Part shown: in pieces, positions 4,788 through 20,049 of the stretch
Layout: every line of letters begins with the position of its first letter
Position numbering within the stretch: the stretch's first letter is position 1
Assembly (NCBI GenBank): GCA_965223255.1
Contig: CBDCWA010000004.1
Coordinates: 1,611,514-1,675,513 of the forward strand
Reading direction: 5' to 3'
From: Hyphomicrobiaceae bacterium
Lineage (GTDB): Bacteria; Pseudomonadota; Alphaproteobacteria; Rhizobiales; Hyphomicrobiaceae
Length of the DNA stretch: 64,000 nucleotides
The notes under the pieces: generated by a model
Database searches by the model: none
What the model saw: the letters and a program-made list of their open reading frames with translations, nothing else
Told to the model about the DNA's origin: nothing
Made by a program: the position numbers and the translations under genes

Positions 4788-5147
4788 AATCAGCTAACAG
4801 ATTTCCACCTTTCCCTACGACACGGATTATCAAGGAACGTGGCGCCAATGGATGTGGCGAACAAACGTAACTTGACCAGGTCTCTATTGTTCCGATCGGC
4901 GATCAATCTCGCGCGGCTTTTTTCTTGCACCATTGAAATGCCCCGCCGGCTTTGCGCAGAAATGCGGTCGGACACCGCCCCATATGACAGCGTTTGCCGC
5001 TGTATTGGCTGAACAATTCCGCCTGCAGACCGAGCGCGCTGGCTGCAAGTATATCGTAACGGCCGGTTCTTGGGTGGCACACATATTGCAACAAAATGGT
5101 GGTCTTAACGTAAACCGCTAAGTTAACTGAAAGCTTTGGAGGACGAG

Positions 5148-5618: not shown

Positions 5619-6305
5619 GTACCCGCCAAGAGCGATGCAAAGTAGTTTCAAAGCCGATCAGGCCAAGGGACCCTACCCTTGGCCTGCCAAAATGTCGGAG
5701 TAGATTTATTGTGGGTAGAGGAATCCGTGCCGGCGAAGCTGGTAAGAACGCGGGCTGCGACAAGCCTGCAATGGAGTTGAAGCAGCTGGACACAAAGCCA
5801 GTCAATTTATCGGATCAGGCGCAGTCGCAGATTAACTTTGTCCACTCTGACAAACAACAAACAAGTGGCACGGCGGACCAATGCGTGCCGTCGCATCAAC
5901 ACAAGCTGAGCATTTAATTCCCATGGTCAACGAGCGCTTTCGAAGGGCGCTTCCATTGTGTGGCGCAGGTGTCCGATTGCTTGATTGACCGGAGCCCCAT
6001 GCGTTCCATGGGTGTGATTCAACAGCTGACAACTAACATAGATAACATAGACGAATTTTTGCCTATTCGGCTCAAGTATCCGACATGCATGGGTTTTGCC
6101 AATTTGTCAGATGTAGGCCGCCCAACCTACGCATTGATAAATAATGTGAAAGTGCGGAGGTGGCCTGATATTTCCAAGTGCACCCAGACAAGATGGCAGC
6201 ATAGCTGCCACATCTGGCCGGTGTTGCTTGAGGCCGGAGTGGCTATTGTCTTGAATTTCCGGAAAAACCGAAGTTTTCCATTGCGAATCAATCAGTTGTA
6301 GCTTC

Positions 6306-6321
6306 TGGCACAGTCCTTGCA
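6306..6321 (+). promoter_or_regulatory. sigma-54 (-24/-12) promoter TGGCAC-AGTCC-TTGCA
   Basis: This is an exact match to the TGGCAC-N5-TTGCW consensus. It lies ~180 nt upstream of the Gly-Met-X gene and on the same strand. A sigma-54 activator is encoded in the same module. Confidence 0.8.
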
Positions 6322-6498
6322 AGCGGTTAATAGAACGTGATGCATTGGGAACGTTTTGTGAGGCCAGGACGCACAGCTGGGGGGTCTCATGTTCTGTAGT
6401 CAGTCAAGAGGCATCGGATTCGCCGCGGTTGTGAAGACGTGCCGCCAACCGAAGGAGCAGGATTAGCAATGGTAACGTTTCAAAAGGAGTTTGGTCGA

Positions 6499-7425
6499 AT
6501 GCGTGGCTACATGGCCGCGGCCGCGGTTATTGCAGCGGGCGTAATAACGGGTATGAGCAGCTCGGAAAGTACCGCGCAGGGCATGCGTGGCATGTACGGA
6601 ATGCCGGGTATGTACGGCATGGGCGGCATGCGCGGCATGCCTGGTATGGGCGGTATGTACGGCATGGGCGGCATGCGCGGCATGTACGGCATGGGTGGTA
6701 TGCGCGGCATGTACGGCATGGGCGGCGTGCGCGGCATGTACGGCATGGGTGGTATGCGAGGTCCAGCCGGCAGGTGGACTTGGGTGTGGGTGCCAGCTCC
6801 TACAAGCAGAATGAGAGGCATGTACGGTATGTACGGAATGCCGGGCATGTACGGCATGGGTGGCATGCGTGGTATGTACGGCATGTACGGAATGCCGGGT
6901 ATGTACGGCATGGGTGGCATGCGCGGTATGTACGGCATGGGCGGCATGCGCGGTATGTACGGTATGCGGGGCATGCCGGGCATGTACGGCATGGGCGGCA
7001 TGCGCGGTATGTACGGCATGGGCGGCATGCGCGGTATGTACGGTATGCGGGGCATGCCGGGCATGTATGGCATGTATGGAATGCCGGGCATGTACGGCAT
7101 GGGCGGCATGCGCGGTATGTATGGCATGGGCGGTATGCGCGGTATGTACGGTATGCGTGGCATGCCCGGTATGGGTGGCATGTACGGCATGTACGGAATG
7201 CCGGGCTTGTACGGCATGGGCGGCATGCGCGGCATGCGCGGTATGTACGGCATGGGCGGCATGGGCGGTATGTACGGCATGCGCGGAATGCCAGGTATGG
7301 GCGGCATGTATGGCATGCGCGGCATGCCGGGTATGGGCGGTATGCGTGGCATGCCCGGAACGCGAAGCTGGGCTCCTCCGCAACCACCGCAGACTCCGCC
7401 ACCGGCGCAGAAGAAGCCGAGCTAA
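6499..7425 (+). CDS. secreted hyper-methionine (Gly-Met-X)n repeat protein, collagen-like Gly periodicity
   Basis: The track ORF is 6439..7425. I prefer the ATG at 6499 because AAGGAG lies 9 nt upstream; ATG 6469 is an alternative. The signal peptide is MRGYMAAAAVIAAGVITGMSSSESTA/QG. After it come 20 and then 60 G-M-X triplets, followed by a Pro-rich tail. The gene shares strand and operon context with the downstream genes. Confidence 0.7.
   Translation: MRGYMAAAAVIAAGVITGMSSSESTAQGMRGMYGMPGMYGMGGMRGMPGMGGMYGMGGMRGMYGMGGMRGMYGMGGVRGMYGMGGMRGPAGRWTWVWVPAPTSRMRGMYGMYGMPGMYGMGGMRGMYGMYGMPGMYGMGGMRGMYGMGGMRGMYGMRGMPGMYGMGGMRGMYGMGGMRGMYGMRGMPGMYGMYGMPGMYGMGGMRGMYGMGGMRGMYGMRGMPGMGGMYGMYGMPGLYGMGGMRGMRGMYGMGGMGGMYGMRGMPGMGGMYGMRGMPGMGGMRGMPGTRSWAPPQPPQTPPPAQKKPS
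6580..6759 (+). repeat. coding tandem repeat block 1: 20 x 9-nt GGN-ATG-NNN triplet units
   Basis: Hand parse gives GMR GMY GMP GMY GMG GMR GMP GMG GMY GMG GMR GMY GMG GMR GMY GMG GVR GMY GMG GMR. Confidence 0.9.
6817..7356 (+). repeat. coding tandem repeat block 2: 60 x G-M-X units with a higher-order 9-triplet (81-nt) unit
   Basis: 59 of the 60 triplets have Met at position 2 (the exception is GLY). The unit GMG GMR GMY GMG GMR GMY GMR GMP GMY recurs at 6907, 6988 and, as a variant, 7096. Confidence 0.9.
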
Positions 7426-7629: not shown

Positions 7630-8220
7630 ATGTCAGACAGTACTGAGAGCTACAGCGAGGCTGAAGCGTCGTCTCCAATAGAAGAGGCGCGAGCGAAGCC
7701 TATGAAACGAGAAGCATTCAACCAAATTGCTCCGTTTCTTGTCGCTGTCGCAGTCACCGCAGGCATTATAATGGTCTCCGTGGGGGTATCGAAAAAGCAG
7801 CCGGAGCTCGAGCCAGGTCCAAGCAAAGACATCGGCCGACCTGCGGCTCCGCTGTCAAGCGCGAAAGTGCCCGCCGCAAAAGGGCCGGCCGCCACTGCAC
7901 CAAAAGATCCGCAAGTGAGAACGACACCACCAAAGGAGACGGCTTCCCGGCCCTCGAAAGTAGAACCAGTAAAATCCGAATCATCATCGACTGTTAAGAG
8001 TCTTTTTGTCGGCGGTGCAGCACCGAGTAGACGTCCCTCTGATGCTCCGTCGATCAAAGACCTTGCAAAGGACGCCGATTGGTATGCGCGTGCACTTACC
8101 GGCCTCGCAAAGCCCTACCCGCGCAGCTTCAAGTTTTTGGAAGACCAAGGTGCTTGGTATACGCCCTTCAACAAGCGCGGAATGACTGGCCCTTACGACA
8201 TTAGGAGTTGGCATGAATAA
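7630..8220 (+). CDS. single-pass membrane protein with Pro/Ala/Ser/Lys-rich linker and conserved C-terminal module (unassigned)
   Basis: GGGAGG sits upstream of the ATG. The protein has an acidic N-terminus, one TM helix (IAPFLVAVAVTAGIIMVSVGV), a low-complexity linker and a C-terminal ~70 aa paralogous to the C-terminus of the next gene. Confidence 0.7.
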   Translation: MSDSTESYSEAEASSPIEEARAKPMKREAFNQIAPFLVAVAVTAGIIMVSVGVSKKQPELEPGPSKDIGRPAAPLSSAKVPAAKGPAATAPKDPQVRTTPPKETASRPSKVEPVKSESSSTVKSLFVGGAAPSRRPSDAPSIKDLAKDADWYARALTGLAKPYPRSFKFLEDQGAWYTPFNKRGMTGPYDIRSWHE

Positions 8221-9046
8221 GAACACTGGGATGCAACAAATAGCACAGCCATTCACAAATCATGCGTGGCGACCAATGGGCGTCACTGCAATCAAATCCT
8301 TGATTCCAGAAGCGTCGCTCATAGCATCTCTATTGTGGGCAAGTCTGTTCATGATCGGCGTCGCCGACGCGCGCGCTGAAGGCGATATTGAGCAGGGCAA
8401 GAGAGTATTCAGGCTCTGCATCGCCTGCCATAAGATTGGGCCAGGGGCGAGAAACCTGAGCGGGCCAAAACTCAATGGCATTGTTGGCCGAAAGGCCGGC
8501 ACCGTTGAGGGGTTCAAGTATTCTCCCGCCAACAAGAAGGCTGGCGAACAGGGATGGATTTGGACCGAACAGGCATTGGATAAATATTTGGAGAACCCGC
8601 GCAAGGCGATGCCTGGCAATCGGATGGTGTTCATCGGGATAAAAAGCGCGAAGGATAGAAAGAATCTCATCGCTTATCTCAAGTCATTCAAGTCAAGTCA
8701 GCACCGCGGGACGACCAAGACCATGGACGCCGCATCAGCACCGGTCCAGCCGGGGGCTAAAACAAAGCGTTCGGCGAAGGCCGAGCGCGGGGGCAAATCC
8801 CAACCCAAACGGACGACGTCAGTCATATGGGTCGGTGGATCAACCCCGTCCAAACGGCCACCCGCCGCACCGCGCCTGAGAAGCTTCGAGAAGACGCCTG
8901 CCTGGTACCGCCGTGCTCTGGCAGGCCTGTCGAAGCCCTATCCGCCGAGCTTCCGGTTCCTCGAGGATCAAGGTGCTTGGTACACACCATTCAATAGCTC
9001 GGGCATGACAAGCCCTTACGATCTGCGCGCTTGGCATAAAAGTTAG
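8213..9046 (+). CDS. class I c-type cytochrome (c2-like) with N-terminal signal/anchor and the same C-terminal module
   Basis: An ATGAATAA overlap links it to the previous gene. It has a CIACH haem motif and a PGNRMVF distal Met region, typical of c2/c550 cytochromes. Its C-terminus is paralogous to 8002..8217. Confidence 0.8.
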   Translation: MNKNTGMQQIAQPFTNHAWRPMGVTAIKSLIPEASLIASLLWASLFMIGVADARAEGDIEQGKRVFRLCIACHKIGPGARNLSGPKLNGIVGRKAGTVEGFKYSPANKKAGEQGWIWTEQALDKYLENPRKAMPGNRMVFIGIKSAKDRKNLIAYLKSFKSSQHRGTTKTMDAASAPVQPGAKTKRSAKAERGGKSQPKRTTSVIWVGGSTPSKRPPAAPRLRSFEKTPAWYRRALAGLSKPYPPSFRFLEDQGAWYTPFNSSGMTSPYDLRAWHKS

Positions 9047-9116: not shown

Positions 9117-9977
9117 ATGATGCACAGAACGCTAACCTTGGCAGTGAGTTGCCTGTCCGTCGTTCTTGTCACAGGCAGCATTTATTCGTTTGCATGGTCA
9201 GAGAGTGGCACACGCAAGGGCGATTATGCTGCTGCGGTATGGAACAAACTTCATTTCTCACCAGCCATTGATCGCGCAAGAGATGAGCAGTGCCTTTCAT
9301 GCCATAGCGAGATCCTCAAGCAAAAAGTGCGCACCAAGTCTCCCGCCGGGATAAAGGCGAAAGATTCAATTGCTTGGTATCAGGCAATGGATACGTACAC
9401 AGGAGATCAAGAAACGTTTCATTGGCGGCATATTTCTTCGCCTTTTGCAAAGGCTGTCATGAAGCTGTCGTGCAATTTCTGTCACCGTGGACACGATCCG
9501 CGTGAAGAGGCGCCAGGCTCGAGTGCAACCGCACCGCAAATTGGCAAAGCGACTGGGTTTGCCTTGCGCAAGACGGTTGATCCTTCGCAAACGTGCCTCA
9601 AGTGCCATGGCAGCTTTCCCTATAAGATCATGCAATTGCCGGGACCTTGGCACGAAGTGCGACCGTTAATGGAGTCACCGGAAATAAAAAACGGCTGCCT
9701 AGGCGCTTGTCACAAGGTAGCATTCCGCACCAATCGCCATAACGTGACCTATCTCAATCGCGACAAGATAGAGGAATTGTCCAAGGACAACTCGGACACG
9801 TGCTTTGGCTGTCATGGCGGAAGGGCATGGTACCGGAATTCCTACCCTTATCCGCGAAATCCCTGGCCCGGCATGGACAAAGAGATTCCAAAGTGGGCCA
9901 AGGATAGGCCCACCCAATCCGAAGCGCGCTTTCGCATTGGCGACAAACAAGGCGCCGCGGCTGGCAAGACGAAATAG
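9117..9977 (+). CDS. multihaem c-type cytochrome (4 CxxCH + 1 CxxxCH)
   Basis: The motifs are CLSCH, CNFCH, CLKCH, CFGCH and the variant CLGACH. The N-terminal hydrophobic segment could be a signal peptide or an anchor. A NapC/TorC-like quinol-dehydrogenase role is only a guess. Confidence 0.8.
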   Translation: MMHRTLTLAVSCLSVVLVTGSIYSFAWSESGTRKGDYAAAVWNKLHFSPAIDRARDEQCLSCHSEILKQKVRTKSPAGIKAKDSIAWYQAMDTYTGDQETFHWRHISSPFAKAVMKLSCNFCHRGHDPREEAPGSSATAPQIGKATGFALRKTVDPSQTCLKCHGSFPYKIMQLPGPWHEVRPLMESPEIKNGCLGACHKVAFRTNRHNVTYLNRDKIEELSKDNSDTCFGCHGGRAWYRNSYPYPRNPWPGMDKEIPKWAKDRPTQSEARFRIGDKQGAAAGKTK

Positions 9978-10012: not shown

Positions 10013-12547
10013 ATGAGTGTGAAGATTGACGTCCTCAGATCAGCTTTAAACCTGACGCGCCGCCGTTTCGTGCAACTGTCGGCGGCAAGTGCAGCCGCCG
10101 GTGCGGCAGGGCTTAAGCCGGAGCAGGCACAGGCGTTCGCCTATGAACCATATCCGACTGACGACGAGCTGACGACGATAGTAACAAGCTGCGCGCATAA
10201 TTGCGGATCGCGTCACGCACTCGTTGCACACAAGAAAGGTGATGTAATTGTCAGGCTGTCATCGGATGACGGACGCTATCAGAAGGATGGAGAATACGGC
10301 AAGGATACAGAGGACGAGCCGCAGGTGCGCGCCTGTCTGCGCGGACGGTCGTATCGTTCGCGGCTCTACTCGGCAGAGCGCCTGCTCCATCCCATGATTC
10401 GGGTCGGAGCGCGCGGTGAAGGGAAATTCAAACGCGCCTCCTGGGATACGGCGTTGGACTACATTGCCGAGCGCATAGTGAACATTAAGAATACCTATGG
10501 GCCAACTGCAATCCTGGACCAAAGCTATGCCGGCGCCTCATGGGGCGTCTTGCATCGCTCGGATCAGATCGAGGGGCTATTAGGGCGCTTTCTCGGCATT
10601 TTCGGTTGCCGCACGACGTCCTGGTCCGTGCCTTCGTATCAGGGAACGACTTTTTCGTCAGAAACGACCTTTGGCACGATTGAGGATGGAAATGAGGATG
10701 ATACGTTTGCCCACTCCAAGCTGATGATCATGTGGGGCTGGAATCCGGCCTACACATTTCATGGCGGCAATACATTCTACTATATGCGACTTGCAAAGCA
10801 GCGCGGATGCAAATTTGTCTTGGTGGACCCGCAATACACAGATTCAGCGGCCTCCTATGATGCCTGGTGGATTCCAATTCGGCCTAATACGGATGCGGCA
10901 ATGCTCGCGGCAATGGCCCACTATATCTTTGTCAACAAACTTCAAGATCAGAGCTTCATCAATCGCTTCTGCCTTGGCATGGACGCGGGCACAATGCCGG
11001 CATTCGCCACCGACCAGGAAAATTTCAGAGACTACATTCTTGGCAGGTATGACGGTCAACCTAAGTCTCCGGAATGGGCGCAAGAGATCTGTGGTGTAAA
11101 GGCCGATGACATCAAGAAGCTCGCGCGGATGTATGCGACGACAAAGCCAGCGGCATTGAAAGCAAGCTGGGCGCCAGGGCGATGCGCATACGGCGAACAG
11201 TATAGCAGGATGGCCGCGGCCCTTCAGGCAATGACCGGAAACATCGGTGTCTTGGGCGGCAGTGCTGAAGGCGTCGGCAAGGCCTGGAAAGCACAGGCTG
11301 CTGCGGGACCGGTAGATCAATACGCCAACATACATGCCGCTGCGATCAAGTCAGATAGATGGGCCGACTGCGTCCTTAATTACCCAAATGTGCGCCGCGA
11401 AGATGTCGGCTTGTGGCCGAAGTCGGGCGCCATGGATGGGGTAATACCGAATATTCGAGCGATTTGGTGGCAAGCGTCCGACTGGTTTAACCAGCTCCCC
11501 AACATCAACAAACAAATAGAAGCGATCCAAAAGCTTGATCTCGTCGTCTGCCAAGATTCGACCATTACGCCATCTGGGATATGGGCCGATGTGCTTCTGC
11601 CGGTTGCTACCCACTTCGAGCGCCACGATGTGGCCCTGCCTTGGTACAAGGGCCACTACTATATTCATAGGCCGAAGGTGATCGAGCCGCTTGGAGAAAG
11701 CAAGACCGACTGGCAGATTTTCACCGAGCTCGCGTTCCGACTCGGATTTGGCAAGACCATGAATCCACTTGCCTCCCGCGACTATTTCCACAACGATGAT
11801 GCGACCGACGAGGCGTATCTCAGGGATTGGTGGGAAAAGCGCGTCATGGGGTATCAAGGAGTTACGATGCCCTGGGATGAGTTCAAGAAACGCGGCATCT
11901 ACAAATTCCGACTGGACAAGCCCCATGTTGCCTTTCGCGAGCAGATTGAGGAGGGCAAACCATTCAAGACCACCTCCGGCAAGATCGAGATATTCTCTAT
12001 CAAACTATCGAACATTAAGGACTTTCGCCAAACGCAGTTTGGTTATCCTATCCCCGCAATCCCAAAATGGATTGAGCCATGGGAAGGCAGGCGCGATCCA
12101 AAGGTGCGCCAATATCCATTCCAGATGATCACGCCACACCCACGTTGGCGAACGCACTCAATATTCAACAACATCGGGTGGCTTCGGGAGACCTATGAGC
12201 AGGAAGTGACAATCAATGCGGACGATGCCGAGAAGCTCGGCATTAAGACAGGGGACAACGTCTACATCTGGAATGAGCGAGGCGCGACGGTGACACCAGC
12301 CTATGTGACACAACGACTGATGCCGGGCGTCGTTGTGCTTTACGAAGGCGCTTGGATGGATCGGGACACAAAGGGTATCGACCGGTCCGGCAATCCGGAT
12401 TTCCTGACCCTGGATGCGCCCAGCCCTGCAGGGGCATTTGCATACAATACGCTGTTGGTAAACATGCAGAAGACCGATCTGCCGCATCGACCCGGCTGGG
12501 ACAAGCTCGCAACGGCACGCAGCCACGTCTTCCGGCGTGACAATTGA
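10013..12547 (+). CDS. Tat-exported molybdopterin oxidoreductase catalytic subunit, DMSO reductase family (DmsA-like)
   Basis: GGAGG RBS. The twin-arginine motif is TRRRFVQLSAASAAAGA. The N-terminal FS0-type motif is C-AHN-C-GSR-H ... QVRACLRGRS. As far as I recall E. coli DmsA, the protein is collinear with it (e.g. RVGARGEGKFKRASW). Length is 844 aa. Confidence 0.85.
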   Translation: MSVKIDVLRSALNLTRRRFVQLSAASAAAGAAGLKPEQAQAFAYEPYPTDDELTTIVTSCAHNCGSRHALVAHKKGDVIVRLSSDDGRYQKDGEYGKDTEDEPQVRACLRGRSYRSRLYSAERLLHPMIRVGARGEGKFKRASWDTALDYIAERIVNIKNTYGPTAILDQSYAGASWGVLHRSDQIEGLLGRFLGIFGCRTTSWSVPSYQGTTFSSETTFGTIEDGNEDDTFAHSKLMIMWGWNPAYTFHGGNTFYYMRLAKQRGCKFVLVDPQYTDSAASYDAWWIPIRPNTDAAMLAAMAHYIFVNKLQDQSFINRFCLGMDAGTMPAFATDQENFRDYILGRYDGQPKSPEWAQEICGVKADDIKKLARMYATTKPAALKASWAPGRCAYGEQYSRMAAALQAMTGNIGVLGGSAEGVGKAWKAQAAAGPVDQYANIHAAAIKSDRWADCVLNYPNVRREDVGLWPKSGAMDGVIPNIRAIWWQASDWFNQLPNINKQIEAIQKLDLVVCQDSTITPSGIWADVLLPVATHFERHDVALPWYKGHYYIHRPKVIEPLGESKTDWQIFTELAFRLGFGKTMNPLASRDYFHNDDATDEAYLRDWWEKRVMGYQGVTMPWDEFKKRGIYKFRLDKPHVAFREQIEEGKPFKTTSGKIEIFSIKLSNIKDFRQTQFGYPIPAIPKWIEPWEGRRDPKVRQYPFQMITPHPRWRTHSIFNNIGWLRETYEQEVTINADDAEKLGIKTGDNVYIWNERGATVTPAYVTQRLMPGVVVLYEGAWMDRDTKGIDRSGNPDFLTLDAPSPAGAFAYNTLLVNMQKTDLPHRPGWDKLATARSHVFRRDN

Positions 12548-13233
12548 TGATTGGGGACACAGATATGGCAAAGGCGCCGATTGACAAGAAGAAGATAAAG
12601 AACGCGGTAAAACGCAAGAAACAAGACGTTTACAAGCCAGTGGTTCCCCACCAACAGCTCGGGTTTATCCATAACAATGTCGATTGTATCGGGTGCAGGG
12701 CTTGCGAGATTGCTTGTAAGGATAAGAATGGGTTAGCACCCGGACCAAGATTCCGCAGAGTACAATATATCGAGGGTGGCACATATCCCGAGGTGTTTGC
12801 ATACAAGGTAAATATGTCGTGCAATCACTGCGCTGAACCTGCCTGCCTTCCCGCCTGTCCCACCGGCGCGATCTACAAACGGAAAAAGGATGGTATTGTC
12901 GACATTGACTCGACGTTGTGCATCGGATGCCGGCGCTGCGAGGCCACATGCCCCTACGGCGCACCGCAATACATCCCTGATCAAAATATCGTTTCTAAGT
13001 GTAATATGTGCGTGGATGAGATTGATGCCGGTCGTAAGCCCTATTGCGTGATGGCCTGCATGATGCGCGTGCTCGATATTGGTCCGATAGACAAATTGCG
13101 TGATGGGACTTGGGACACTAAAGCCAAGGCAAAGCAGGAGAAAGTTGTACGTCAGGTGCAGAATATGGCGGATCCGGAGCTAACCAATCCATCGATCGTA
13201 TTCGTCGCGCATAGCAAGGGCAAAGTGAAATAG
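12544..13233 (+). CDS. 4x[4Fe-4S] ferredoxin-type electron-transfer subunit (DmsB-like)
   Basis: Four Cys clusters are present (CIGCRACEIAC, CNHCAEPACLPACP, CIGCRRCEATCP, CNMCVDE...CVMAC). The start overlaps the stop of the A subunit (TTG 12544 / ATG 12547). ATG 12565 with a GGGGA RBS is an alternative start. Confidence 0.85.
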   Translation: MMIGDTDMAKAPIDKKKIKNAVKRKKQDVYKPVVPHQQLGFIHNNVDCIGCRACEIACKDKNGLAPGPRFRRVQYIEGGTYPEVFAYKVNMSCNHCAEPACLPACPTGAIYKRKKDGIVDIDSTLCIGCRRCEATCPYGAPQYIPDQNIVSKCNMCVDEIDAGRKPYCVMACMMRVLDIGPIDKLRDGTWDTKAKAKQEKVVRQVQNMADPELTNPSIVFVAHSKGKVK

Positions 13234-13302: not shown

Positions 13303-14130
13303 GTGCACAAACCTATCAGAGGTGCCCACCATGCTGGCCCTAGCCAGCATGCAGGGCGGGAGAATTCATTCGTGCAAGACCATGGACAAAGCGAAGCTGA
13401 ACTTCTTGCTGCTTTCAGAGAGTCGGTCGATGATGACCTGAAGTTGATTGCAGCACTGCACGATCGCGAGATCGATGCACCTGCGATCGCGCAGCTCAAA
13501 CAACTGAGGTTTCCCAGTGGCCTCGGTTTTAATCTGTCAAAGTCGGCAGCGAAACAAGCCCAACGACAAATGATCGATGCTCTTGCGGATCTGCCGGATG
13601 TACCCGATCAAGCGCTTCTCGATGAACTCGCCGTCGATTTTGCAGCAATCTATCTGACCTATCGCTACCGGGCCGCGCCAACGGAATCCGTGTGGCTCGA
13701 TAAGGACCATCTCGAGCGCCAGCAACCTATGTTTCAGACCCGAGCCGCCTACCGCCGAAGAGGTCTGAAGGTCGTCAACTGGAACGTGAGGTCTGAAGAT
13801 CACCTGGTCACTCAACTGCTTTTTGTGGCGCATTTGATTGGCGAATGTCGCGACGAAGTGGCGCTAGCGGATGCTGCAGCGTTCCTTGACCAGCACTTGC
13901 TCCGTTGGATTGACATCTTCGCCTTGAGTGTAGCGCAACGTTGCAGCGCTCGTTTTTATAGCGCCCTCGGCTCGCTGACAGCTGCCTATTTGGACGAGCT
14001 GCGCGATGTTCTCGCAGAGATCCTGGATGAACCGCGACCCCAAATCGTAACAGCCGATCAGATTCTGCAGCCACCCGACGAAGCCGAGCAGCACACTCCA
14101 ATCGCACCGGCCGTTGGTCCAAGCTGGTGA
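13303..14130 (+). CDS. TorD/DmsD-family redox enzyme maturation chaperone
   Basis: The EDHL-type motif (SEDHLVTQLLFVAHL) and helical layout are typical of the TorD family. It sits immediately after the A and B subunits. The GTG start is uncertain. Confidence 0.65.
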   Translation: MHKPIRGAHHAGPSQHAGRENSFVQDHGQSEAELLAAFRESVDDDLKLIAALHDREIDAPAIAQLKQLRFPSGLGFNLSKSAAKQAQRQMIDALADLPDVPDQALLDELAVDFAAIYLTYRYRAAPTESVWLDKDHLERQQPMFQTRAAYRRRGLKVVNWNVRSEDHLVTQLLFVAHLIGECRDEVALADAAAFLDQHLLRWIDIFALSVAQRCSARFYSALGSLTAAYLDELRDVLAEILDEPRPQIVTADQILQPPDEAEQHTPIAPAVGPSW

Positions 14131-14151: not shown

Positions 14152-15534
14152 TTAGTCGCTGCGTTCACTAACGCTAAGTCCATGCTTCTTGAGCAACCTG
14201 TACGTGTTGCGCTCGCTTATTCCCAATACTTCAGCAATCCGCGAGCGATGTCCGCCGTATTTTACGACCAATCTAGCCAGGTAATCTCGCCGGATTTCCT
14301 CTAACGTTGGCTCGTGATCAAACATGAACGCCGCCGTTTCACAACGAGACGACTGAGCGCTGGGTGGAGCACTCAACCCCAGGTGCCGTGCTCGGATAGT
14401 AACGTCGTCGCCAGATACCAGGATTGCCCGCTCTATGACGTTTCTAAGCTCGCGAACATTGCCTGGCCATGAGTATGCGGTAAGCACCTCAATGGCATCC
14501 TTGCTCAATATCTTCTGCCGGGCGCGCTGAAAAGATCTGGTATCCAAAAACAGCTCTGACAGCACCGCGATGTCCTCGCGCCGCTGTCGCAGCGGTGGTA
14601 CACTGATCACAACTGTAGCCAAGCGATAGTAAAGGTCAGATCGAAATCGTCCCTCGTCGATGGATGCTATAAGGTCACGATTAGTTGCAGCGACGATGCG
14701 CGCGTCACTGATTATCTTCTGGGTGCCGCCGACGCGCCGAAATTCTCCGGTCTCAAGCACGCGCAGTAGTTTTGCCTGCATCGACGCAGGCAATTCGCCG
14801 ATTTCGTCAAGGAACAGTGTTCCGCCCTCGGCAATTTCGATCAAGCCCTGCTTGCGCCGGTCCGCTCCTGTAAATGCCCCTTTCTCGTGACCAAACAACT
14901 CCGATTCGAACAGCGTCTCTTGTAATGTCGTTGCATCCACAGGCACAAAGTTGGAATCCGCACGATCGCTCAGCTGGTGAATGGCTTTTGCTACAAGCTC
15001 CTTGCCGACGCCACTTTCGCCCTCGATTAGAACCGTTGAATCGCTTGGTGCGACCAACTCAATAAGATGTGCCATTTCCTCAAAAGCATTGCTCCGTCCA
15101 ACCATAATCTTCTTGATGTTGGGATTTAGTTGTTCTCGGCAATACTGGTAGCTGCGCCTCAAGGAGCTGTTTTCCAATGCTCGGCCAATAGCAAACTCCA
15201 GTTCGGACGGATTGATCGGTTTCGTCAGATAGTCAACCGCACCAGACCGGATAGCTTCGACTGCATGCCGAATGCTTCCGTACGCCGTCAGAACGAGCAC
15301 AGGGCATTGAGCTGAAAGTTCCGGCAAACACTGGATACCATCGATGTCGGGAAGTCTGATATCGAGGAGAGCAAGAGCGGGATCATGAGTCTCCAGCGTC
15401 ACCTTGGCTTCCTCCCATGAATAGACGCCAGTTGGCTGATAGCCCATCGCCCGCAGTTGTTCGATCAGAAAATGATTAAGTGCCTTGTCGTCCTCTATGA
15501 CAAGAAGATGCTTACCTTTCTTTCTTTGCGTCAT
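14152..15534 (-). CDS. sigma-54-dependent response regulator (NtrC family enhancer-binding protein)
   Basis: It has a receiver domain (LDIRLPDIDG), an AAA+ Walker A (GESGVGKE), the GAFTGA sigma-54 contact loop and a C-terminal Fis-type HTH. Confidence 0.9.
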   Translation of the reverse strand: MTQRKKGKHLLVIEDDKALNHFLIEQLRAMGYQPTGVYSWEEAKVTLETHDPALALLDIRLPDIDGIQCLPELSAQCPVLVLTAYGSIRHAVEAIRSGAVDYLTKPINPSELEFAIGRALENSSLRRSYQYCREQLNPNIKKIMVGRSNAFEEMAHLIELVAPSDSTVLIEGESGVGKELVAKAIHQLSDRADSNFVPVDATTLQETLFESELFGHEKGAFTGADRRKQGLIEIAEGGTLFLDEIGELPASMQAKLLRVLETGEFRRVGGTQKIISDARIVAATNRDLIASIDEGRFRSDLYYRLATVVISVPPLRQRREDIAVLSELFLDTRSFQRARQKILSKDAIEVLTAYSWPGNVRELRNVIERAILVSGDDVTIRARHLGLSAPPSAQSSRCETAAFMFDHEPTLEEIRRDYLARLVVKYGGHRSRIAEVLGISERNTYRLLKKHGLSVSERSD

Positions 15535-17435
15535 GATAGTTCTTTCGCTACTTCTGCAGAAGGCAATGTGACAACGAATCTAGTCCCCTCACCAACCACG
15601 CTCGTCACATCTAACCTGCCGCCGCTTCGTTTGACTATTTCTTGGCATATTGAAAGCCCAAGCCCTGTTCCGTGAACGCCGTCGGCACGTTTACTCCAGA
15701 AGGGATCGAATATTTTGGCGAGATCGCTCTTCTTGATCCCCACGCCAGTGTCCTCAAAGACCAGCTCGACCACATCTTCGCAGACTGAGCCCGAAACCAG
15801 CAGGCGCCCGCCATCAGGCATGGCATGCAGAGCGTTCTGTGCGATGTTTAGCACCATCATTCTCATCTCGCTGTCGGAGCCGATTGATCTGAGTTCACTC
15901 TCAAGATCCATCGATATGTCGACCTCTGACTTCAGTGCCTCAGCGTTGAGTAGGGAGAGAACCTCGAACACGACGTTGTTGAGATTTACAAGTTCGCGGT
16001 GCTCGCTTGCTGGTGCGCTAAGCTTCAAAAGACGCGACGTAACTTCTATGCAGCGCGTTATCTGATCTTCGATAATGTCAAGATACTTGCTTGCCTTCTC
16101 GTCCCGACCCTCCCGTAGAGCTCTTTTCGCTGAGTCGAAGCCCAAAAGTATGGACGCAAGAGGGTTGTGAATCTCGTGTGCAACACCCGCGGCCAGGAAG
16201 CCAATTTCCGACAGCCGCTGCTCTTGCGATAGCCGCACGTCCTTGCTCAGGTCTCTAATGACCTCCACAACGAATTTTTTTTGCGTGTCGTCAATAGTGA
16301 TTTCAAGCAGCGCTGCTGAGACCTCGACCGGGATTTCTTTCTCATCGGCGCTCACATGAGAATGCCGACAAGTCAAGACCTGCCCTCCTTTCTGCAGTTC
16401 ATGCAGCGGACAGCTGACCAAGCTCGCTGGGCAAGGCGATTCACGAGAATGGCTGGACCAATAGCAGGGTCGCTGTACCACCTCAGACCGCGCGCGATGC
16501 TGTTGTTCGCAGAATGCGCGGTTAGCCTTGACGACCTGATAGTTCATGTCGATCACGCGCACTCCATCGGGCATTATGTCGATCAGGTCCTGCAAATACC
16601 GCTCTCTGGTCTCTATATTGTGTACAGCTTGAGCGATACGAGCGGACATGTCGTTAAAGGCACGTCCAAGCCGCCCAATCTCATCGGAGCTTTTTAGCGG
16701 CACACGGTGACCCAGTTGGCCCAGCGACATCTTATCCGCTGCCTCGGTCAGTCCTTTCACAGGTGCGAGCACGAACCAGTTAAGCAGAAATCCGATGCCA
16801 CCAATGGTAGTCAGCACGACTGCTATTCCGGCACCACTCAGCATCAATACTGCAAACATTGTGTCGCGTCTGATGTTCGTTGCGTCATAGTCAACGACGA
16901 GAATTCCGTTTATTGGGTGGGTATCAATCTGGCCATGGCATTTAGTGCATGGGCCGCGGTTGCGGACCGGGTTTATGCTGCGCAGAATGTCACCAGCAAC
17001 GGCGTCCGCAACGAAGGCCGAACGGGGCCCGTGCCCTTTTATTGTTGCCTTGCAGTCTGGGCACAACTCACCTGCTTCGAGATCAAAACGTCGGCCAAGC
17101 TGTATCTTGTTGCTCGCAAATCTGACTTCACCATTCGGCGCAAGAATCATGACACCGGAAATATTCTCCTGTTCACCCAATCGTTCGACCATTTTCCTCA
17201 GGCCAACGATGTCACGATTGAGCATCGCATTCTCAAGCCCCAGCTGCAGCAGGCGGTTGACCTCCGTGGATGCTGCGCTGCGTTCCCTCAGGATTTGATC
17301 ACGATAGGAGAGAATGACCAACGCAAGGAAACAGATCGATGCAAACGTTAGGCTTGCGACAAGGATCAGGGTTATTTTCCGCCTTAGGCTTGCAGCAGAC
17401 CACCTGGCTAGGTCATTCCATAACTGTCCCATCAT
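15531..17435 (-). CDS. sensor histidine kinase: periplasmic Cys/haem-motif domain, HAMP, PAS, HisKA, HATPase
   Basis: Two TM helices flank a ~150-aa loop containing CPDCK and CTKCH. It also has a HAMP domain, a Cys-rich PAS-like domain, the H-box GVAHEIHNPL, and G-boxes DTGVGI and GTGLGLS. There are 4-nt overlaps with both neighbouring genes. Confidence 0.9.
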   Translation of the reverse strand: MMGQLWNDLARWSAASLRRKITLILVASLTFASICFLALVILSYRDQILRERSAASTEVNRLLQLGLENAMLNRDIVGLRKMVERLGEQENISGVMILAPNGEVRFASNKIQLGRRFDLEAGELCPDCKATIKGHGPRSAFVADAVAGDILRSINPVRNRGPCTKCHGQIDTHPINGILVVDYDATNIRRDTMFAVLMLSGAGIAVVLTTIGGIGFLLNWFVLAPVKGLTEAADKMSLGQLGHRVPLKSSDEIGRLGRAFNDMSARIAQAVHNIETRERYLQDLIDIMPDGVRVIDMNYQVVKANRAFCEQQHRARSEVVQRPCYWSSHSRESPCPASLVSCPLHELQKGGQVLTCRHSHVSADEKEIPVEVSAALLEITIDDTQKKFVVEVIRDLSKDVRLSQEQRLSEIGFLAAGVAHEIHNPLASILLGFDSAKRALREGRDEKASKYLDIIEDQITRCIEVTSRLLKLSAPASEHRELVNLNNVVFEVLSLLNAEALKSEVDISMDLESELRSIGSDSEMRMMVLNIAQNALHAMPDGGRLLVSGSVCEDVVELVFEDTGVGIKKSDLAKIFDPFWSKRADGVHGTGLGLSICQEIVKRSGGRLDVTSVVGEGTRFVVTLPSAEVAKELS

Positions 17436-17908
17436 TGCGATGCCAGCCGAATGATAAAGCTCTCAGTAGGAACAAGATCCGTATCAATCCGGCAAAGCCT
17501 TTCGGTTTGGTCAGCAAGATCATCCTGGAAGACGGTGATCGGAACGACGACCGGCACCAGCCATTCCCGCGCAGCAAATGCCTTAAGCCAGTCCCGCCGC
17601 TCCTCAGAGGCCTTTGTCGCGAGAATGGATTCCGCGTTATGCACAACGAGCCCGCCACGATTCGATTTCTTTTCGATGTACGCGGTCAGAGCCGATAGTG
17701 GAACCTGGCCGGCCTCCCATCCCAGGGGGAGAAGTTTTTCCGCCCGAAAGTCTATGAAGGTGAAGTCAAGAGCATTCGTCATGGCGCGTATTAACTCTGG
17801 CCGGTACTCGGGAAAAACGACGAAGAAACCTCCACGTCCAGCAGCCTGGGCAATCATCTCGGCAACCGGCCTTATCCAAGGTAATAGAGGCTCTCGAGAC
17901 TGCATCAT
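17432..17908 (-). CDS. hypothetical protein co-transcribed with the kinase
   Basis: The track ORF starts at 17962. I prefer ATG 17908 because it forms an ATGA start/stop overlap with the upstream ferredoxin gene. The stop overlaps the kinase start. I recognised no motif. Confidence 0.55.
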   Translation of the reverse strand: MMQSREPLLPWIRPVAEMIAQAAGRGGFFVVFPEYRPELIRAMTNALDFTFIDFRAEKLLPLGWEAGQVPLSALTAYIEKKSNRGGLVVHNAESILATKASEERRDWLKAFAAREWLVPVVVPITVFQDDLADQTERLCRIDTDLVPTESFIIRLASQ

Positions 17909-18993
17909 CGCAACACTTGAAACAGTTTGTCGTAATGCTGCGTCTTCAGGCAGATCCGACATCGCAACTCGGCCGATCCCTGGCTCTCAGGCATCAAAAA
18001 CACAGTTCCGCACGAGCGGCATTGCGCAGAATCAAGTTGAATGGATGTCGGGTCGCCGCGCTGCCAGGACTTGACGGCGACTGCATCAGTATCACAAACG
18101 TCAGCGCACAGCCTGCAGCCGGTGCAATGTGACGGAGCGATCTTGTAGGCGGGCCGGCCCGCGTGATCAGTCACAAGTGTGATTGCATGAGTTGGGCATA
18201 TGCGAATACAGGCATTGCACCCGACGCAGTTCGCAGTATCAATTTCGGGAAGATAGGGGTTCAAAGGCATCCCGCTTTCGCCGGCTGGAAGTCGCTCCGC
18301 TGCCGGAACCTGACGTTGTGTCTTCAAGTTGGAATCCACGTCCACCAACCTGCTAACGGCCACAAAAAAACCGCGCCGGGATGCACGCATCGTTGTTGAA
18401 CGTATAGTATGCCATTCGCCAGGTGTGTACTCAGTGATGCTGAATTCATCCATGCCTCGGTCCGCCCAGAGACGTTGGAGGTTGATAACCGCTTGATCAA
18501 ACTGATGACTCAAACCACGCTCGCAGCTCAGGCATGCTTCGCGGCTCACGATCAGCTGTCGCAAACCTTGTGCATATAGTTGAGCCAGTTCATCTATTCC
18601 GATCGAATTCAGGCAAGGTCGTACACCAGGTCCACCTTCTTCGACGGCGACGGAACAGGCAAACAGTCCAATCTTGTCATCGTCATAAGATCTCGCAGCG
18701 TTGGCCAGTGGCAATTCAATCGCAGTCTGCGGGCAGACCGGCACACAGATGCCACATCCATCGCAAGCTTGTTCGTCAAATCCGAGAGCATCCTCCTCTA
18801 AGACCCACGCGGCACGTGGACAAGCATCAACGCAGTCTTGGCAACTAGCGTTGGACACGATCGCATGAACGCAACGATCAGCATCAATAACTGGAAGGTC
18901 TGCGGGCAGATGCGACAGCTTATCGCTTCGCGGAAGGGCAAAGCTGCGTCCTGGCAACCCAGACTCAGTCGTGTCCGAACGATTCTTCGACAT
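17905..18993 (-). CDS. polyferredoxin-like protein (two 2x[4Fe-4S] dicluster domains + C-terminal CxxC...CxxC ribbon)
   Basis: Motifs are CQDCVDACP, CDGCGICVPVCP, CVGCNACIRICP, CTGCRLCADVCD, and CRSCG...CRIC. Start is either ATG 18993 (MSKNRS) or the upstream start at 19083. Confidence 0.75.
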   Translation of the reverse strand: MSKNRSDTTESGLPGRSFALPRSDKLSHLPADLPVIDADRCVHAIVSNASCQDCVDACPRAAWVLEEDALGFDEQACDGCGICVPVCPQTAIELPLANAARSYDDDKIGLFACSVAVEEGGPGVRPCLNSIGIDELAQLYAQGLRQLIVSREACLSCERGLSHQFDQAVINLQRLWADRGMDEFSITEYTPGEWHTIRSTTMRASRRGFFVAVSRLVDVDSNLKTQRQVPAAERLPAGESGMPLNPYLPEIDTANCVGCNACIRICPTHAITLVTDHAGRPAYKIAPSHCTGCRLCADVCDTDAVAVKSWQRGDPTSIQLDSAQCRSCGTVFLMPESQGSAELRCRICLKTQHYDKLFQVLR

Positions 18994-19148: not shown

Positions 19149-19164
19149 TGCAACTCCTGTGCCA
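19149..19164 (-). promoter_or_regulatory. sigma-54 (-24/-12) promoter TGGCAC-AGGAG-TTGCA (minus strand)
   Basis: This is an exact consensus match on the minus strand. It lies 66-156 nt upstream of the polyferredoxin start candidates. Confidence 0.8.
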
Positions 19165-20049
19165 TCACCAATACTCTTTGGCGTCCTGTGTCGACGGCTC
19201 GGCAGATAGCCTTTCAGCGCCGTGACTTGGGCAGGAGGAGCACTGAGGCTGACAAATTGTCATGGGTCGGAGGCGCTGAATATGCCAGTCTGTCAGGTCT
19301 GCGCCAAGCATGTTTGATGCTAGTCTCGGATCGACCATATCGAGTGTCTGGAGTCTCTCCGAAAGAGGGGTCCAATAGATCGGTCTTAGCTATGCCCGAC
19401 AACTGGAGGGCAAATATTTGGGGGCAGACCAACCATCGGATATGCGACGACATTTTGCCGAGTTAGCGAAAGCTTCGCAGCAAGAACGCACGAGCTTCTG
19501 TGCTGCCCACTGAGAGCGGACATCACCCGGCGTGGGGCTGACATCGCGGTGGGGGCAAACGAGAAAGTCACACTGAAGCATTGGCTTACAGCCATGGATG
19601 GATGAGCTGGACCGATCGGTACAATTGTAGCTAATGTCCCACTTGGCGTTCAGGACCAGTTCCATCACCAGCAAGTGCCGGCAGTTAGTCTCGATTTGAT
19701 GAGAATTCCTCGTCAATATCGATGAGCCGGCGCCAGAGCATACAAGCGCGGTGCACGAACACGACGCCAGATCAGACACTTGCACTTCCTTTCCATACGG
19801 CCCCGGCACGCTTCTTTTGATCGAGTCGGGAATCAAATGCCATACGCATCGTAGGCTTTGCTCATGGAGCGCGGGCAGTCATGCCAAGTATTTGGCAAGA
19901 TTTGACGCACATCAAAAACTACGCGCAAGACTTGCATGGAACTTGCATGGAAAGAGCAAATTGCCTGCAGAAGTGGAGAGAGCCGTTGGTCCATGATGGT
20001 GATGTGCAGGCCCGTCGCAAAGGGACGGCTCATTTTAGGAGGAAGTAAG

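What the first reader, a model, noticed from the sequence alone, without database searches (positions are those of the whole stretch)
17432..18993. Polyferredoxin and an unassignable protein are translationally coupled to the two-component system
A protein with four [4Fe-4S]-type Cys motifs plus a C-terminal CxxC...CxxC ribbon, and a 159-aa protein with no motif I recognise, sit in the same operon as the kinase. Overlaps are ATGA at 17905-17908 and again at 17432-17435. Accessory Fe-S proteins encoded in front of a kinase are uncommon. They point to redox sensing by protein partners rather than by the kinase alone.
Basis: partly seen in the sequence, partly recalled or inferred. Interest (0 to 1): 0.5.

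Follow-up and report, generated by a model that had tools for sequence, protein, structure and literature searches.

The report
Accessory gene pair in kinase operon
Two conserved, unannotated cytoplasmic proteins (an iron-sulfur protein with six cysteine sites, and a small ATPase-shaped protein that has lost its ATP-binding loop) sit in the operon of a sensor kinase that appears to control a periplasmic molybdenum enzyme and a methionine-rich protein; they are most likely extra inputs to the kinase, but a role in maturing the enzyme is not excluded.

Summary
On the minus strand, four genes overlap by ATGA: polyferredoxin (17905-18993), a 158-aa protein "X158" (17432-17908), a histidine kinase and a sigma-54 response regulator.

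- **Promoter:** an exact sigma-54 promoter (19150-19164) with an upstream palindrome precedes the operon.
- **Polyferredoxin:** all 24 Cys are conserved. They form four [4Fe-4S] motifs, a Cys4 site in a new middle domain and a Cys4 ribbon. There is also an invariant Tat-like SRRxFF helix.
- **X158:** no Pfam, NCBIfam or PDB relative. An exhaustive HMM search finds about 133 clusters. It is predicted to have a RecA/AAA+-like fold without a Walker A loop, and in some lineages it is fused to hemerythrin.
- **Synteny:** in 20 of 22 informative loci X158 lies directly upstream of the orthologous kinase. The usual array is cytochrome, DmsA-like Mo enzyme, FeS subunit, TorD, polyFd, X158, HK, RR.
- **Dispensability:** each accessory gene is missing from some orthologous modules.
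- **Kinase cofactor motifs:** the kinase itself carries an invariant periplasmic CXXCH and a Cys3/His PAS domain.

Best reading (0.4): both are cytoplasmic accessory inputs to the kinase. Main rival (0.3): NapF-like maturation factors for the Mo enzyme. This is a new variant of a known kind, of moderate interest.

The parts
19250..19262 (-). Palindrome TGACAATTTGTCA, candidate binding site of the sigma-54 response regulator upstream of the accessory/kinase operon
   Evidence: Exact palindrome about 90 bp upstream of the -24 element. A 1-mismatch copy lies at 6097-6109 before the Met-rich operon. The same TG[AC]CA-N3-TG[TG]CA motif lies upstream of sigma-54 sites in L021, L032 and L034, and in the corresponding promoter regions of L002, L016 and L036.
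19150..19164 (-). Sigma-54 promoter (-24/-12) TGGCACAGGAGTTGC of the polyFd-X158-HK-RR operon
   Evidence: One of only three exact TGGCAC-N5-TTGC matches in 64 kb. All three are intergenic and correctly oriented in this cluster. My estimate of the number of exact matches expected by chance is about 0.1.
17905..18993 (-). Polyferredoxin (362 aa from ATG 18993; alternative GTG 19083). N-terminal 2x[4Fe-4S] domain, alpha/beta middle domain with Cys4, SRRGFF helix, C-terminal 2x[4Fe-4S] domain, Cys4 ribbon. No signal peptide.
17432..17908 (-). X158: 158-aa cytoplasmic protein of an unannotated family, with a predicted RecA/AAA+-like (ASCE) alpha/beta fold and no Walker A loop
15531..17435 (-). Sensor histidine kinase (634 aa): TM, periplasmic domain with CXXCH, TM, HAMP, Cys-rich PAS, HisKA, HATPase
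   Evidence: Pfam. C163-x2-C166-H167 and C324/C335/C342 are invariant in 15/15 orthologues; H329 in 13/15 and H360 in 14/15.
14152..15534 (-). Sigma-54-dependent response regulator (REC, AAA+, lid; the C-terminal DNA-binding region gave no Pfam hit)
   Evidence: Pfam Response_reg, Sigma54_activat, AAA_lid_14. NtrC/AtoC-like by NCBIfam, below the equivalog cut-offs.
13303..14130 (+). TorD-family chaperone; in most related loci it is the gene directly upstream of the polyferredoxin
   Evidence: PF02613. Synteny.
10013..13233 (+). Tat-exported DmsA-like molybdoenzyme (10013-12547) and DmsB-like 4-cluster subunit (12544-13233), the presumed regulated enzyme
   Evidence: Pfam and NCBIfam. 69-90% identity among orthologues but about 35% to true DmsA. 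Conserved C-x3-C-x3-H...C N-terminal motif.
6306..6320 (+). Sigma-54 promoter of the structural operon (Met-rich protein 6439-7425, p7630, cytochrome c 8213-9046, multihaem cytochrome 9117-9977, Mo enzyme...)
   Evidence: Exact TGGCAC-N5-TTGC. Palindrome at 6097-6109.

Best explanation
The two genes encode cytoplasmic accessory components of a four-gene signalling operon (polyFd, X158, kinase, sigma-54 regulator).

**Proposed mechanism**
- The operon is switched on by its own regulator from a sigma-54 promoter.
- The same regulator is expected to drive the neighbouring regulon. That regulon comprises the Met-rich periplasmic protein, c-type cytochromes, the DmsA-like Mo enzyme and MsrA. It is probably an oxidant-scavenging / methionine-sulfoxide-reducing system.
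- The kinase reads the periplasm through a haem-c domain.
- The polyferredoxin, a chain of four [4Fe-4S] clusters plus two further Cys4 sites, reports or relays cytoplasmic redox state. The Cys3/His PAS domain of the kinase is a possible target.
- X158, a P-loop-less RecA/AAA+-shaped protein, binds the kinase as a non-catalytic adaptor or modulator.
- The two act independently of each other, since either can be absent.

**Shown:** gene structure, coupling, promoter motifs, Cys conservation, predicted folds and synteny.

**Inferred:** cofactor content, every protein-protein contact, the signal sensed, and the direction of the effect on the kinase.
For: - **Coupling:** ATGA overlaps link polyFd, X158, HK and RR here, and 1-4-nt overlaps do so in relatives.
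- **Own promoter:** the operon has its own exact sigma-54 promoter. It shares a palindrome with the structural-operon promoter.
- **X158-kinase adjacency:** X158 is immediately upstream of the orthologous HK in 20 of 22 informative loci. This holds where the regulatory unit is divergent from the structural genes (window, L001, L003, L021).
- **Rearrangements:** where the gene array is rearranged (window, L001, L002, L003), or a hydrolase gene is inserted after TorD (L038), the polyFd stays beside the HK.
- **A different kinase:** in Azospirillum soli the polyFd is next to a different (dCache hybrid) kinase, with no Mo enzyme within 10 kb.
- **Fusions:** in other lineages the X158 domain is fused to hemerythrin, an iron-based domain often used as a sensor (own knowledge). 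This fits X158 as a module paired with iron/redox domains.
- **Non-catalytic fold:** X158 has no Walker A loop and only one, unconserved, Cys.
Against: - No interaction was tested; the tools return no complex models or coordinates.
- Each gene is missing from some orthologous modules. X158 is absent in L008, L016 and L038. PolyFd is absent in L020, L022, L030, L021, L034 and L036.
- X158 or polyFd persist without an adjacent kinase in L025, L028 and L011, and an orphan polyFd occurs in L039.
- Six metal sites look more like an electron wire or cluster donor than a typical one-cluster sensor.
- The polyFd usually follows TorD and has an RR motif like NapF.
- The hemerythrin-X158 fusions lie near isc and sulfur-metabolism genes, not near kinases.
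- The kinase keeps its own cofactor motifs whether or not the accessory genes are present.
Confidence: 0.4

Rival explanations
1. NapF-like maturation factors. The cytoplasmic polyferredoxin, possibly helped by X158, acts on the Mo-enzyme precursor (MoA/FeSB) before Tat export. It would insert, reduce or repair the precursor's Fe-S clusters. The position of the genes next to the kinase would then be only an operon-order accident.
For: - In the collinear loci the order is MoA, FeSB, TorD, polyFd.
- PolyFd, with or without X158, stays with the structural genes where no kinase is adjacent (L011, L028).
- The polyFd has four [4Fe-4S] motifs and an invariant SRRxFF motif. NapF has the same features, binds NapA in the cytoplasm and is needed for its Fe-S cluster in Rhodobacter (review PMC10609526).
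- MoA keeps a conserved C-x3-C-x3-H...C cluster motif.
- Hemerythrin-X158 fusions lie beside iscRSU or cysteine desulfurase genes. This is reminiscent of the di-iron RIC/YtfE Fe-S repair proteins (own knowledge).
Against: - The NapF model scores 42 bits against a cut-off of 102 and covers only one ferredoxin domain.
- The RR motif is internal and helical in a compact model, not an N-terminal leader.
- In the window and in L001-L003 the genes are split from TorD and the Mo enzyme and are translationally coupled to the kinase instead.
- A. soli keeps TorD, polyFd and a kinase without a Mo enzyme nearby.
- X158 almost never leaves the kinase.
Confidence: 0.3
2. Maturation checkpoint. The invariant SRRxFF helix of the polyFd, and the similar N-terminal extension on some X158 relatives, mimic a Tat leader and are bound by the TorD-type chaperone. 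Competition with the real MoA leader would report precursor backlog, or cofactor or redox status, to the kinase. This would link enzyme assembly to transcription.
For: - R206-R207 are invariant or nearly so in 81 polyFd homologues.
- Four X158-family representatives carry an N-terminal SRRxF[FL] extension without a hydrophobic h-region.
- TorD co-occurs with the polyFd in every locus except the orphan L039, including the Mo-enzyme-less A. soli locus.
- TorD-family chaperones bind twin-arginine leaders (own knowledge). Feedback from an immature component to the kinase is known for TorC and TorS (own knowledge).
Against: - The idea is purely inferential.
- The motif is packed in a confident compact model.
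- Modules without polyFd or without X158 exist.
- No chaperone-binding test is possible with these tools.
Confidence: 0.12
3. Electron-transfer subunit of an unrelated cytoplasmic reaction, for example a reductase partner for cytoplasmic Msr or thiol systems. It would be co-regulated with the stress regulon without touching the kinase or the Mo enzyme.
For: - Profile hits are to electron-wire polyferredoxins (MvhB, FwdF, HycF, RnfB).
- One polyFd lies beside an AhpC/TSA-NHL protein (L011).
- An orphan copy exists (L039).
Against: - No conserved cytoplasmic redox enzyme partner appears in the neighbourhoods.
- The tight overlap with the kinase genes is unexplained by this reading.
Confidence: 0.08

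Closest known systems
NapF (cytoplasmic polyferredoxin of periplasmic nitrate reductase operons)
   Same: Cytoplasmic, four [4Fe-4S] motifs, a twin-arginine-like motif that is not an export signal, encoded with a Tat-exported Mo-bisPGD enzyme, and dispensable in some lineages (PMC10609526).
   Different: More than twice as long, with two extra Cys4 sites and a new alpha/beta middle domain. The RR motif is internal. The NapF HMM scores below its cut-off. The protein is coupled to a kinase gene rather than to the catalytic subunit.
LdpA, the cyanobacterial Fe-S protein that modulates the CikA/KaiA clock-input proteins (function from own knowledge)
   Same: A ~350-aa multi-cluster Fe-S protein proposed as a redox input to a histidine-kinase-type pathway. 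The Pfam LdpA_Fe-S-bd domain scores above its cut-off (34.6 vs 27.6 bits).
Accessory-protein ('three-component') kinase systems: TorT/TorC-TorS, HbpS-SenS, and FixT, the Fe-S-binding inhibitor of FixL (own knowledge)
   Same: Non-kinase partner proteins, some of them metal- or redox-active, tune a sensor kinase. TorS also regulates a DMSO-reductase-family enzyme.
   Different: None of these partners is a polyferredoxin or an ASCE-fold protein. Here two independent cytoplasmic partners are encoded upstream of the kinase and overlap it.
[not shown]
   Same: An ASCE alpha/beta core used for protein-protein or ligand binding rather than ATP turnover.
   Different: X158 is a single 158-aa domain with PEYRP(D/E) in place of the P-loop. 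It has no detectable sequence relation to any Pfam or PDB family or to the AAA+ domain of the regulator.
MrpX-MsrP(YedYZ)/SigF-NrsF of Azospira suillum (PMC4436054) and HprSR-MsrPQ of E. coli (cited in PMC13488963)
   Same: A regulon combining a Met-rich periplasmic protein, a periplasmic Mo-dependent reductase and Msr under a dedicated oxidant-responsive regulator. This is the likely functional frame of the whole cluster.
   Different: The enzyme here is DmsAB-like and fed by c-type cytochromes, not MsrP/MsrQ. The regulator is a sigma-54 two-component system with two extra cytoplasmic proteins. No experimental data exist for it.

Membership tests
NapF (TIGR00402) | Whole-protein match to the NapF equivalog model above its cut-off | tested here: not met
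   42 bits against a cut-off of 102.2, and only residues 283-339 match.
NapF (TIGR00402) | Four tetra-cysteine [4Fe-4S] motifs and a non-exporting twin-arginine-like motif | tested here: inconclusive
   Four ferredoxin motifs and an invariant SRRxFF are present. The RR motif is internal (residues 205-210) and there are two further Cys4 sites.
NapF (TIGR00402) | Binds the Mo-enzyme precursor and is needed for its Fe-S cluster | not testable with these tools
   Only gene order (TorD then polyFd in most loci) speaks to it.
LdpA | LdpA Fe-S-binding domain plus LdpA C-terminal domain | tested here: not met
   PF25160 scores 34.6 bits on residues 82-123 only. No LdpA C-terminal family appears in the Pfam scan.
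Polyferredoxin (multi-2x[4Fe-4S] electron-wire proteins, MvhB/FwdF type) | Several bacterial-ferredoxin domains in one chain | tested here: met
   [not shown]
P-loop NTPases of the ASCE division (RecA/AAA+) | Core alpha/beta fold | tested here: met
   [not shown]
P-loop NTPases of the ASCE division (RecA/AAA+) | Walker A GxxxxGK[ST] after strand 1 | tested here: not met
   The loop reads P-E-Y-R-P-E. Y35 and P37 are invariant and R36 at least 90% conserved in the 29-sequence alignment A3, with no Gly or Lys conserved.
P-loop NTPases of the ASCE division (RecA/AAA+) | Sequence membership in a known AAA/RecA family | tested here: not met
   No Pfam or NCBIfam hit. No PDB sequence hit below E 0.06. 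hhalign against the regulator's AAA+ domain gives probability 0.1.
Haem-c (Tll0287-like/Cache) periplasmic sensor kinases (context, not the finding itself) | CXXCH in a PAS/Cache-like periplasmic domain | tested here: inconclusive
   CXXCH is invariant in 15/15 orthologues. Tll0287-like, sCache_3_2 and LapD_MoxY_N hits are only sub-threshold (E 0.01-0.14).

The most novel reading that the evidence does not exclude
The polyferredoxin and X158 form a new kind of cytoplasmic checkpoint on a sensor kinase. Iron-based modules (polyferredoxin here, hemerythrin in the fusion proteins) would be read out through a P-loop-less RecA/AAA+-shaped adaptor. The invariant pseudo-Tat SRRxFF helix would let the TorD-type chaperone report the assembly state of the exported molybdoenzyme to the kinase. 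Transcription of an oxidant-defence regulon would then be tied both to cytoplasmic redox state and to enzyme maturation.
Probability: 0.1. Interest if true: 0.8.

Novelty: new variant of a known kind. Interest (0 to 1): 0.55.

Why it matters
Sensor kinases with dedicated Fe-S partner proteins are rare, and none with a polyferredoxin or a degenerate ATPase-fold partner has been described in the literature I could search.

X158 is a protein family with no annotation anywhere (about 133 clusters at 50% identity). Its genomic behaviour is very regular, so it is an approachable target for assigning a function to a "dark" domain.

The module appears to control an uncharacterised regulon of a Met-rich periplasmic protein plus a distinct DmsA-like enzyme fed by cytochromes c. 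That regulon looks like a new version of the methionine-based oxidant-scavenging systems. Knowing what the two accessory proteins sense would say what the whole system responds to.

If the rival is right instead, they would be the first NapF-like maturation factors outside Nap. That bears on the open question of how Fe-S clusters are put into Tat-exported molybdoenzymes.

Tried and rejected
- **Word-indexed homologue search for X158:** it found only 6 proteins and suggested extreme rarity. The exhaustive HMM search corrected this to about 133 clusters.
- **Metagenome locus scans with broad alignments:** A 6-sequence subset worked.
- **afdb50 fold library:** not available, so no UniProt/AFDB naming of the X158 family was obtained.
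- **Plasmid collection:** no X158 homologue. One polyFd/MoA orthologous cluster was found, on Rhodobacter xanthinilyticus pEJ01.
- **X158 as a decoy subunit of the regulator's AAA+ ring:** no profile similarity, and the hemerythrin fusions are not near sigma-54 activators. Set aside.
- **X158 as a strict adaptor between polyFd and kinase:** rejected as a general rule, because each occurs without the other.
- **PolyFd as a periplasmic electron carrier to the Mo enzyme:** rejected. It has no signal peptide or N-terminal Tat leader, and the RR motif is internal with no hydrophobic h-region.
- **Complex prediction by concatenating chains:** not attempted, because the tool returns no coordinates or PAE and admits only native sequences.
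- **Source of the window:** the look-up for the window's own genome failed and cluster look-ups gave no names. The closest relatives are Hyphomicrobiaceae MAGs.
- **Literature searches for the cluster:** nothing specific was found.
- **Chlorate-reductase lead:** the lead from PMC9751292 was not pursued, because the enzyme here is DmsA-like and I did not search the window for a cld gene.


Full report
**Observation**

The minus strand between 14152 and about 19083 carries four consecutive ORFs:
- a Cys-rich protein, 17905-18993 (or to 19083 from an upstream GTG);
- a small ORF, 17432-17908 (in frame back to 17962);
- a 634-aa histidine kinase, 15531-17435;
- a 460-aa sigma-54-dependent response regulator, 14152-15534.

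A third 4-nt overlap lies at 15534-15531.

The small protein is 158 aa from the ATG at 17908. Its relatives are 157-158 aa, which fixes that start.

**The polyferredoxin**
- Pfam finds only ferredoxin-type 4Fe-4S families. All NCBIfam equivalog hits, including NapF (42 vs 102 bits), are far below their cut-offs.
- The family has 87 members with E <= 1e-5 in 5.8 billion proteins, most covering at least 88% of the query at 30-46% identity.
- In an 81-sequence alignment all 24 Cys of the window protein are invariant or at least 90% conserved. They group as:
  - C41/C51/C54/C58 (non-canonical spacing);
  - C77/C80/C83/C87;
  - C113/C127/C154/C157;
  - C256/C259/C262/C266;
  - C290/C293/C296/C300;
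  - C325/C328/C345/C348.
- R206-R207, in an SRRxFF motif that looks like a Tat consensus, are invariant or nearly so.
- The AF2 model is confident and compact (pLDDT 88, pTM 0.84). It shows two ferredoxin domains, an alpha/beta middle domain carrying the extra Cys4 set, and a beta-ribbon tail. The RR motif starts a helix, and residues 1-27 are disordered.
- There is no signal peptide, so the protein is cytoplasmic (inference from the sequence).

**X158**
- It has no Pfam or NCBIfam hit, either alone or across 29 relatives. It has no PDB sequence relative.
- The word-indexed search found six proteins. An exhaustive HMM search of 1.84 billion representatives found 133 clusters at E <= 1e-3, of which 118 are at <= 1e-10.
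- The AF2 model (pLDDT 83.6) is an alpha/beta domain. Its best structural matches are RecA/KaiC-like and AAA+ nucleotide-binding domains:
  - Foldseek: Vps4 at E 5e-4.
- The loop after strand 1 reads PEYRPE, with near-invariant Y-R-P, instead of a Walker A motif. Other conserved residues are D53, R55, N91, E93, R104 and W107.
- It has one, unconserved, Cys.
- At least six cluster representatives are fusions of an N-terminal hemerythrin domain to X158.
  - The fusions are stand-alone genes in sulfur and Fe-S metabolism neighbourhoods.
  - One fusion protein (seen on two contigs, L014/L015) lies beside iscRSU-type genes, and another (L012) lies within about 3 kb of a cysteine desulfurase-type gene.
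- Four unfused representatives carry an N-terminal SRRxF[FL] extension without a hydrophobic h-region.

**Operon and promoters**
- The window has only three exact TGGCAC-N5-TTGC sites. All three are intergenic and correctly oriented within this cluster:
  - 5075-5089, before a cytochrome-c'-like ORF;
  - 6306-6320, before the Met-rich gene;
  - 19150-19164 (minus strand), before the polyferredoxin.
- A perfect palindrome TGACAATTTGTCA lies about 90 bp upstream of the last site. A one-mismatch copy lies about 200 bp upstream of the 6306 site.
- The same palindrome, often in two copies 33 or 66 bp apart, precedes sigma-54 sites in L021, L032 and L034. It also lies in the corresponding promoter regions of L002, L016 and L036.
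- Inference: the regulator activates both the structural operon and its own operon, including the two accessory genes.

**Comparative genomics of X158**

I examined 25 distinct loci with unfused X158 (the window; L001-L003; L017-L037).
- X158 is followed at once by the orthologous kinase in 20.
- It is not followed by a kinase in 2 (L025, L028).
- The contig ends in 3.
- The polyferredoxin is immediately upstream of X158 in 16.
- The polyferredoxin is absent in at least 7: L020, L022 and L030 (TorD then X158); L021, L034 and L036 (a promoter region then X158); and L025.

**Comparative genomics of the polyferredoxin**
- Six polyferredoxin loci lack X158 within the retrieved DNA:
  - L008, L016 (Rhodobacter xanthinilyticus plasmid pEJ01) and L038, where polyFd is followed directly by HK and RR;
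  - L009 (Azospirillum soli), which has TorD, polyFd and a dCache hybrid kinase, with no Mo enzyme within 10 kb;
  - L011, where polyFd ends the structural operon and kinase fragments lie divergently upstream;
  - L039, an orphan.
- The commonest order is multihaem cytochrome, MoA, FeSB, TorD, polyFd, X158, HK, RR on one strand.
- In the window, L001 and L003 the last four genes form a separate, convergent operon. In L002 TorD is moved away. In L038 a hydrolase gene separates TorD from the polyFd.
- The polyFd-X158-HK-RR block is therefore the unit that survives most rearrangements, but not all of them.

**Context**
- The regulated genes encode:
  - a signal-peptide-bearing protein that is 25% Met and 33% Gly and has no Cys (6439-7425);
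  - a 196-aa protein and a cytochrome c that share a C-terminal domain;
  - a multihaem cytochrome;
  - a Tat-exported DmsA-like enzyme, 69-90% identical among orthologues but only about 35% identical to true DmsA;
  - a DmsB-like subunit;
  - TorD.
- MsrA lies nearby (4080-4787).
- Met-rich ORFs accompany the cluster in at least nine other loci.
- By analogy with MrpX/MsrP of Azospira (PMC4436054) and with protein-MetSO reduction by a periplasmic DMSO reductase (PMC7402097), the regulon is probably an oxidant-scavenging / methionine-sulfoxide-reducing system. This is inference only.
- In 15/15 orthologues the kinase has an invariant periplasmic C-x2-C-H and invariant PAS residues C324, C335 and C342. 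H329 is kept in 13/15 and H360 in 14/15. This holds whether or not the accessory genes are present.

**Mechanism**

I favour (0.4) the view that both proteins are cytoplasmic accessory inputs to the kinase. Reasons:
- overlap with the kinase genes and a shared promoter;
- X158-kinase adjacency in 20/22 loci;
- retention of the polyFd next to the kinase through rearrangements, and next to a different kinase in A. soli;
- the pairing of X158 with an iron-based hemerythrin domain in other lineages.

Because either protein can be absent, they cannot be an obligatory sensor-adaptor pair. Each would act on the kinase independently.

The main rival (0.3) is a NapF-like role in maturing the Mo enzyme.
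- NapF is a cytoplasmic four-cluster protein with a non-functional RR motif. It binds NapA, is needed for its Fe-S cluster in Rhodobacter, and is dispensable elsewhere (PMC10609526).
- The polyFd usually follows TorD. It stays with the structural genes in L011 and L028, and MoA keeps a conserved cluster motif.

A hybrid reading (0.12) is that TorD binds the pseudo-Tat helix and reports assembly state to the kinase. An unrelated electron-transfer role gets 0.08.

None of these can be separated without interaction data.

**Comparison and novelty**
- The polyFd belongs to the loose polyferredoxin class. It fails the NapF and LdpA family tests.
- X158 has the ASCE fold but fails the Walker A and sequence-family tests.
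- Kinases with accessory proteins are known (TorT/TorC-TorS, HbpS-SenS, FixT-FixL; own knowledge). This is therefore a new variant of a known kind, built from one unannotated family and one undescribed polyferredoxin architecture.
- Literature searches found nothing on this cluster.

**Verdict**
- Interest is 0.55.

Noticed in passing
window 6439-7425 (+): A 328-aa signal-peptide protein made of MGGMRGMYGM-type repeats (25% Met, 33% Gly, no Cys; the Pfam 'Collagen' hit is spurious). Equivalent Met-rich ORFs precede the cytochrome/Mo-enzyme genes in at least 9 related loci. It is possibly a sacrificial methionine sink like MrpX. The long antisense ORFs over it are repeat artefacts.
   Followed up: partly
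window 5075-5089, 6306-6320 (+), 19150-19164 (-); palindromes 6097-6109 and 19250-19262: Three exact sigma-54 promoter matches, all inside this cluster. A shared TGACA-N3-TGTCA palindrome recurs, often in pairs 33 or 66 bp apart, upstream of sigma-54 sites in related loci. It is the likely operator of the response regulator.
   Followed up: partly
window 15531-17435 (-), kinase residues 163-167 and 324-360: An invariant periplasmic CXXCH (haem-c motif) and an invariant Cys3 plus His PAS domain in 15/15 orthologues. The kinase probably carries two cofactors of its own. A periplasmic C125-x2-C128 pair is present only in loci that have both accessory genes, which is probably a clade effect.
   Followed up: partly
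window 10013-12547 (+), residues 60-98: The DmsA-like catalytic subunit has a strictly conserved C-x3-C-x3-H...C motif, with His where DmsA has the third Cys. It is only about 35% identical to true DmsA and so forms a distinct, uncharacterised clade of the DMSO reductase family.
   Followed up: partly
window 7630-8220 and 8213-9046 (+): A 196-aa protein with no Pfam hit and the adjacent cytochrome c share a ~50-aa C-terminal domain (WYxRALxGLxKPYPxSFxFLEDQGAWYTPFNxxGMTxPYDxRxWH). They are 51% identical over 111 aa. The domain recurs in most related loci.
   Followed up: partly
window 5136-5618 (+): A cytochrome-c'-family protein (PF01322, E 6e-11) without any cysteine, so it cannot bind haem c covalently. 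It has its own sigma-54 promoter.
   Followed up: no
L012-L015; proteins P0170, P0180, P0192, P0203, P0230-P0232: Hemerythrin-X158 fusion proteins (296-339 aa). They are monocistronic and lie in sulfur and Fe-S metabolism neighbourhoods (iscRSU, cysteine desulfurase, rhodanese, DsrE, sulfate ABC transporter).
   Followed up: partly
polyFd residues 205-210 (about window 18364-18381); proteins P0148, P0179, P0187, P0196: An invariant Tat-like SRRxFF motif inside the cytoplasmic polyferredoxin. A similar N-terminal SRRxF[FL] extension, with no hydrophobic h-region, occurs on four X158-family representatives. It is possibly a handle for a TorD-type chaperone.
   Followed up: partly
L009/L010 (Azospirillum soli JAGINQ010000017.1): An orthologous TorD (40% identity) and polyferredoxin (35%) sit next to a dCache hybrid kinase. 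No Mo enzyme lies within 10 kb.
   Followed up: no
L025 17683-18453: In one locus X158 stands alone about 9 kb upstream of the cytochrome/Mo-enzyme genes. An ORF that looks Crp/Fnr-like by eye (not scanned against any family library) lies just before those genes instead of the two-component system.
   Followed up: no
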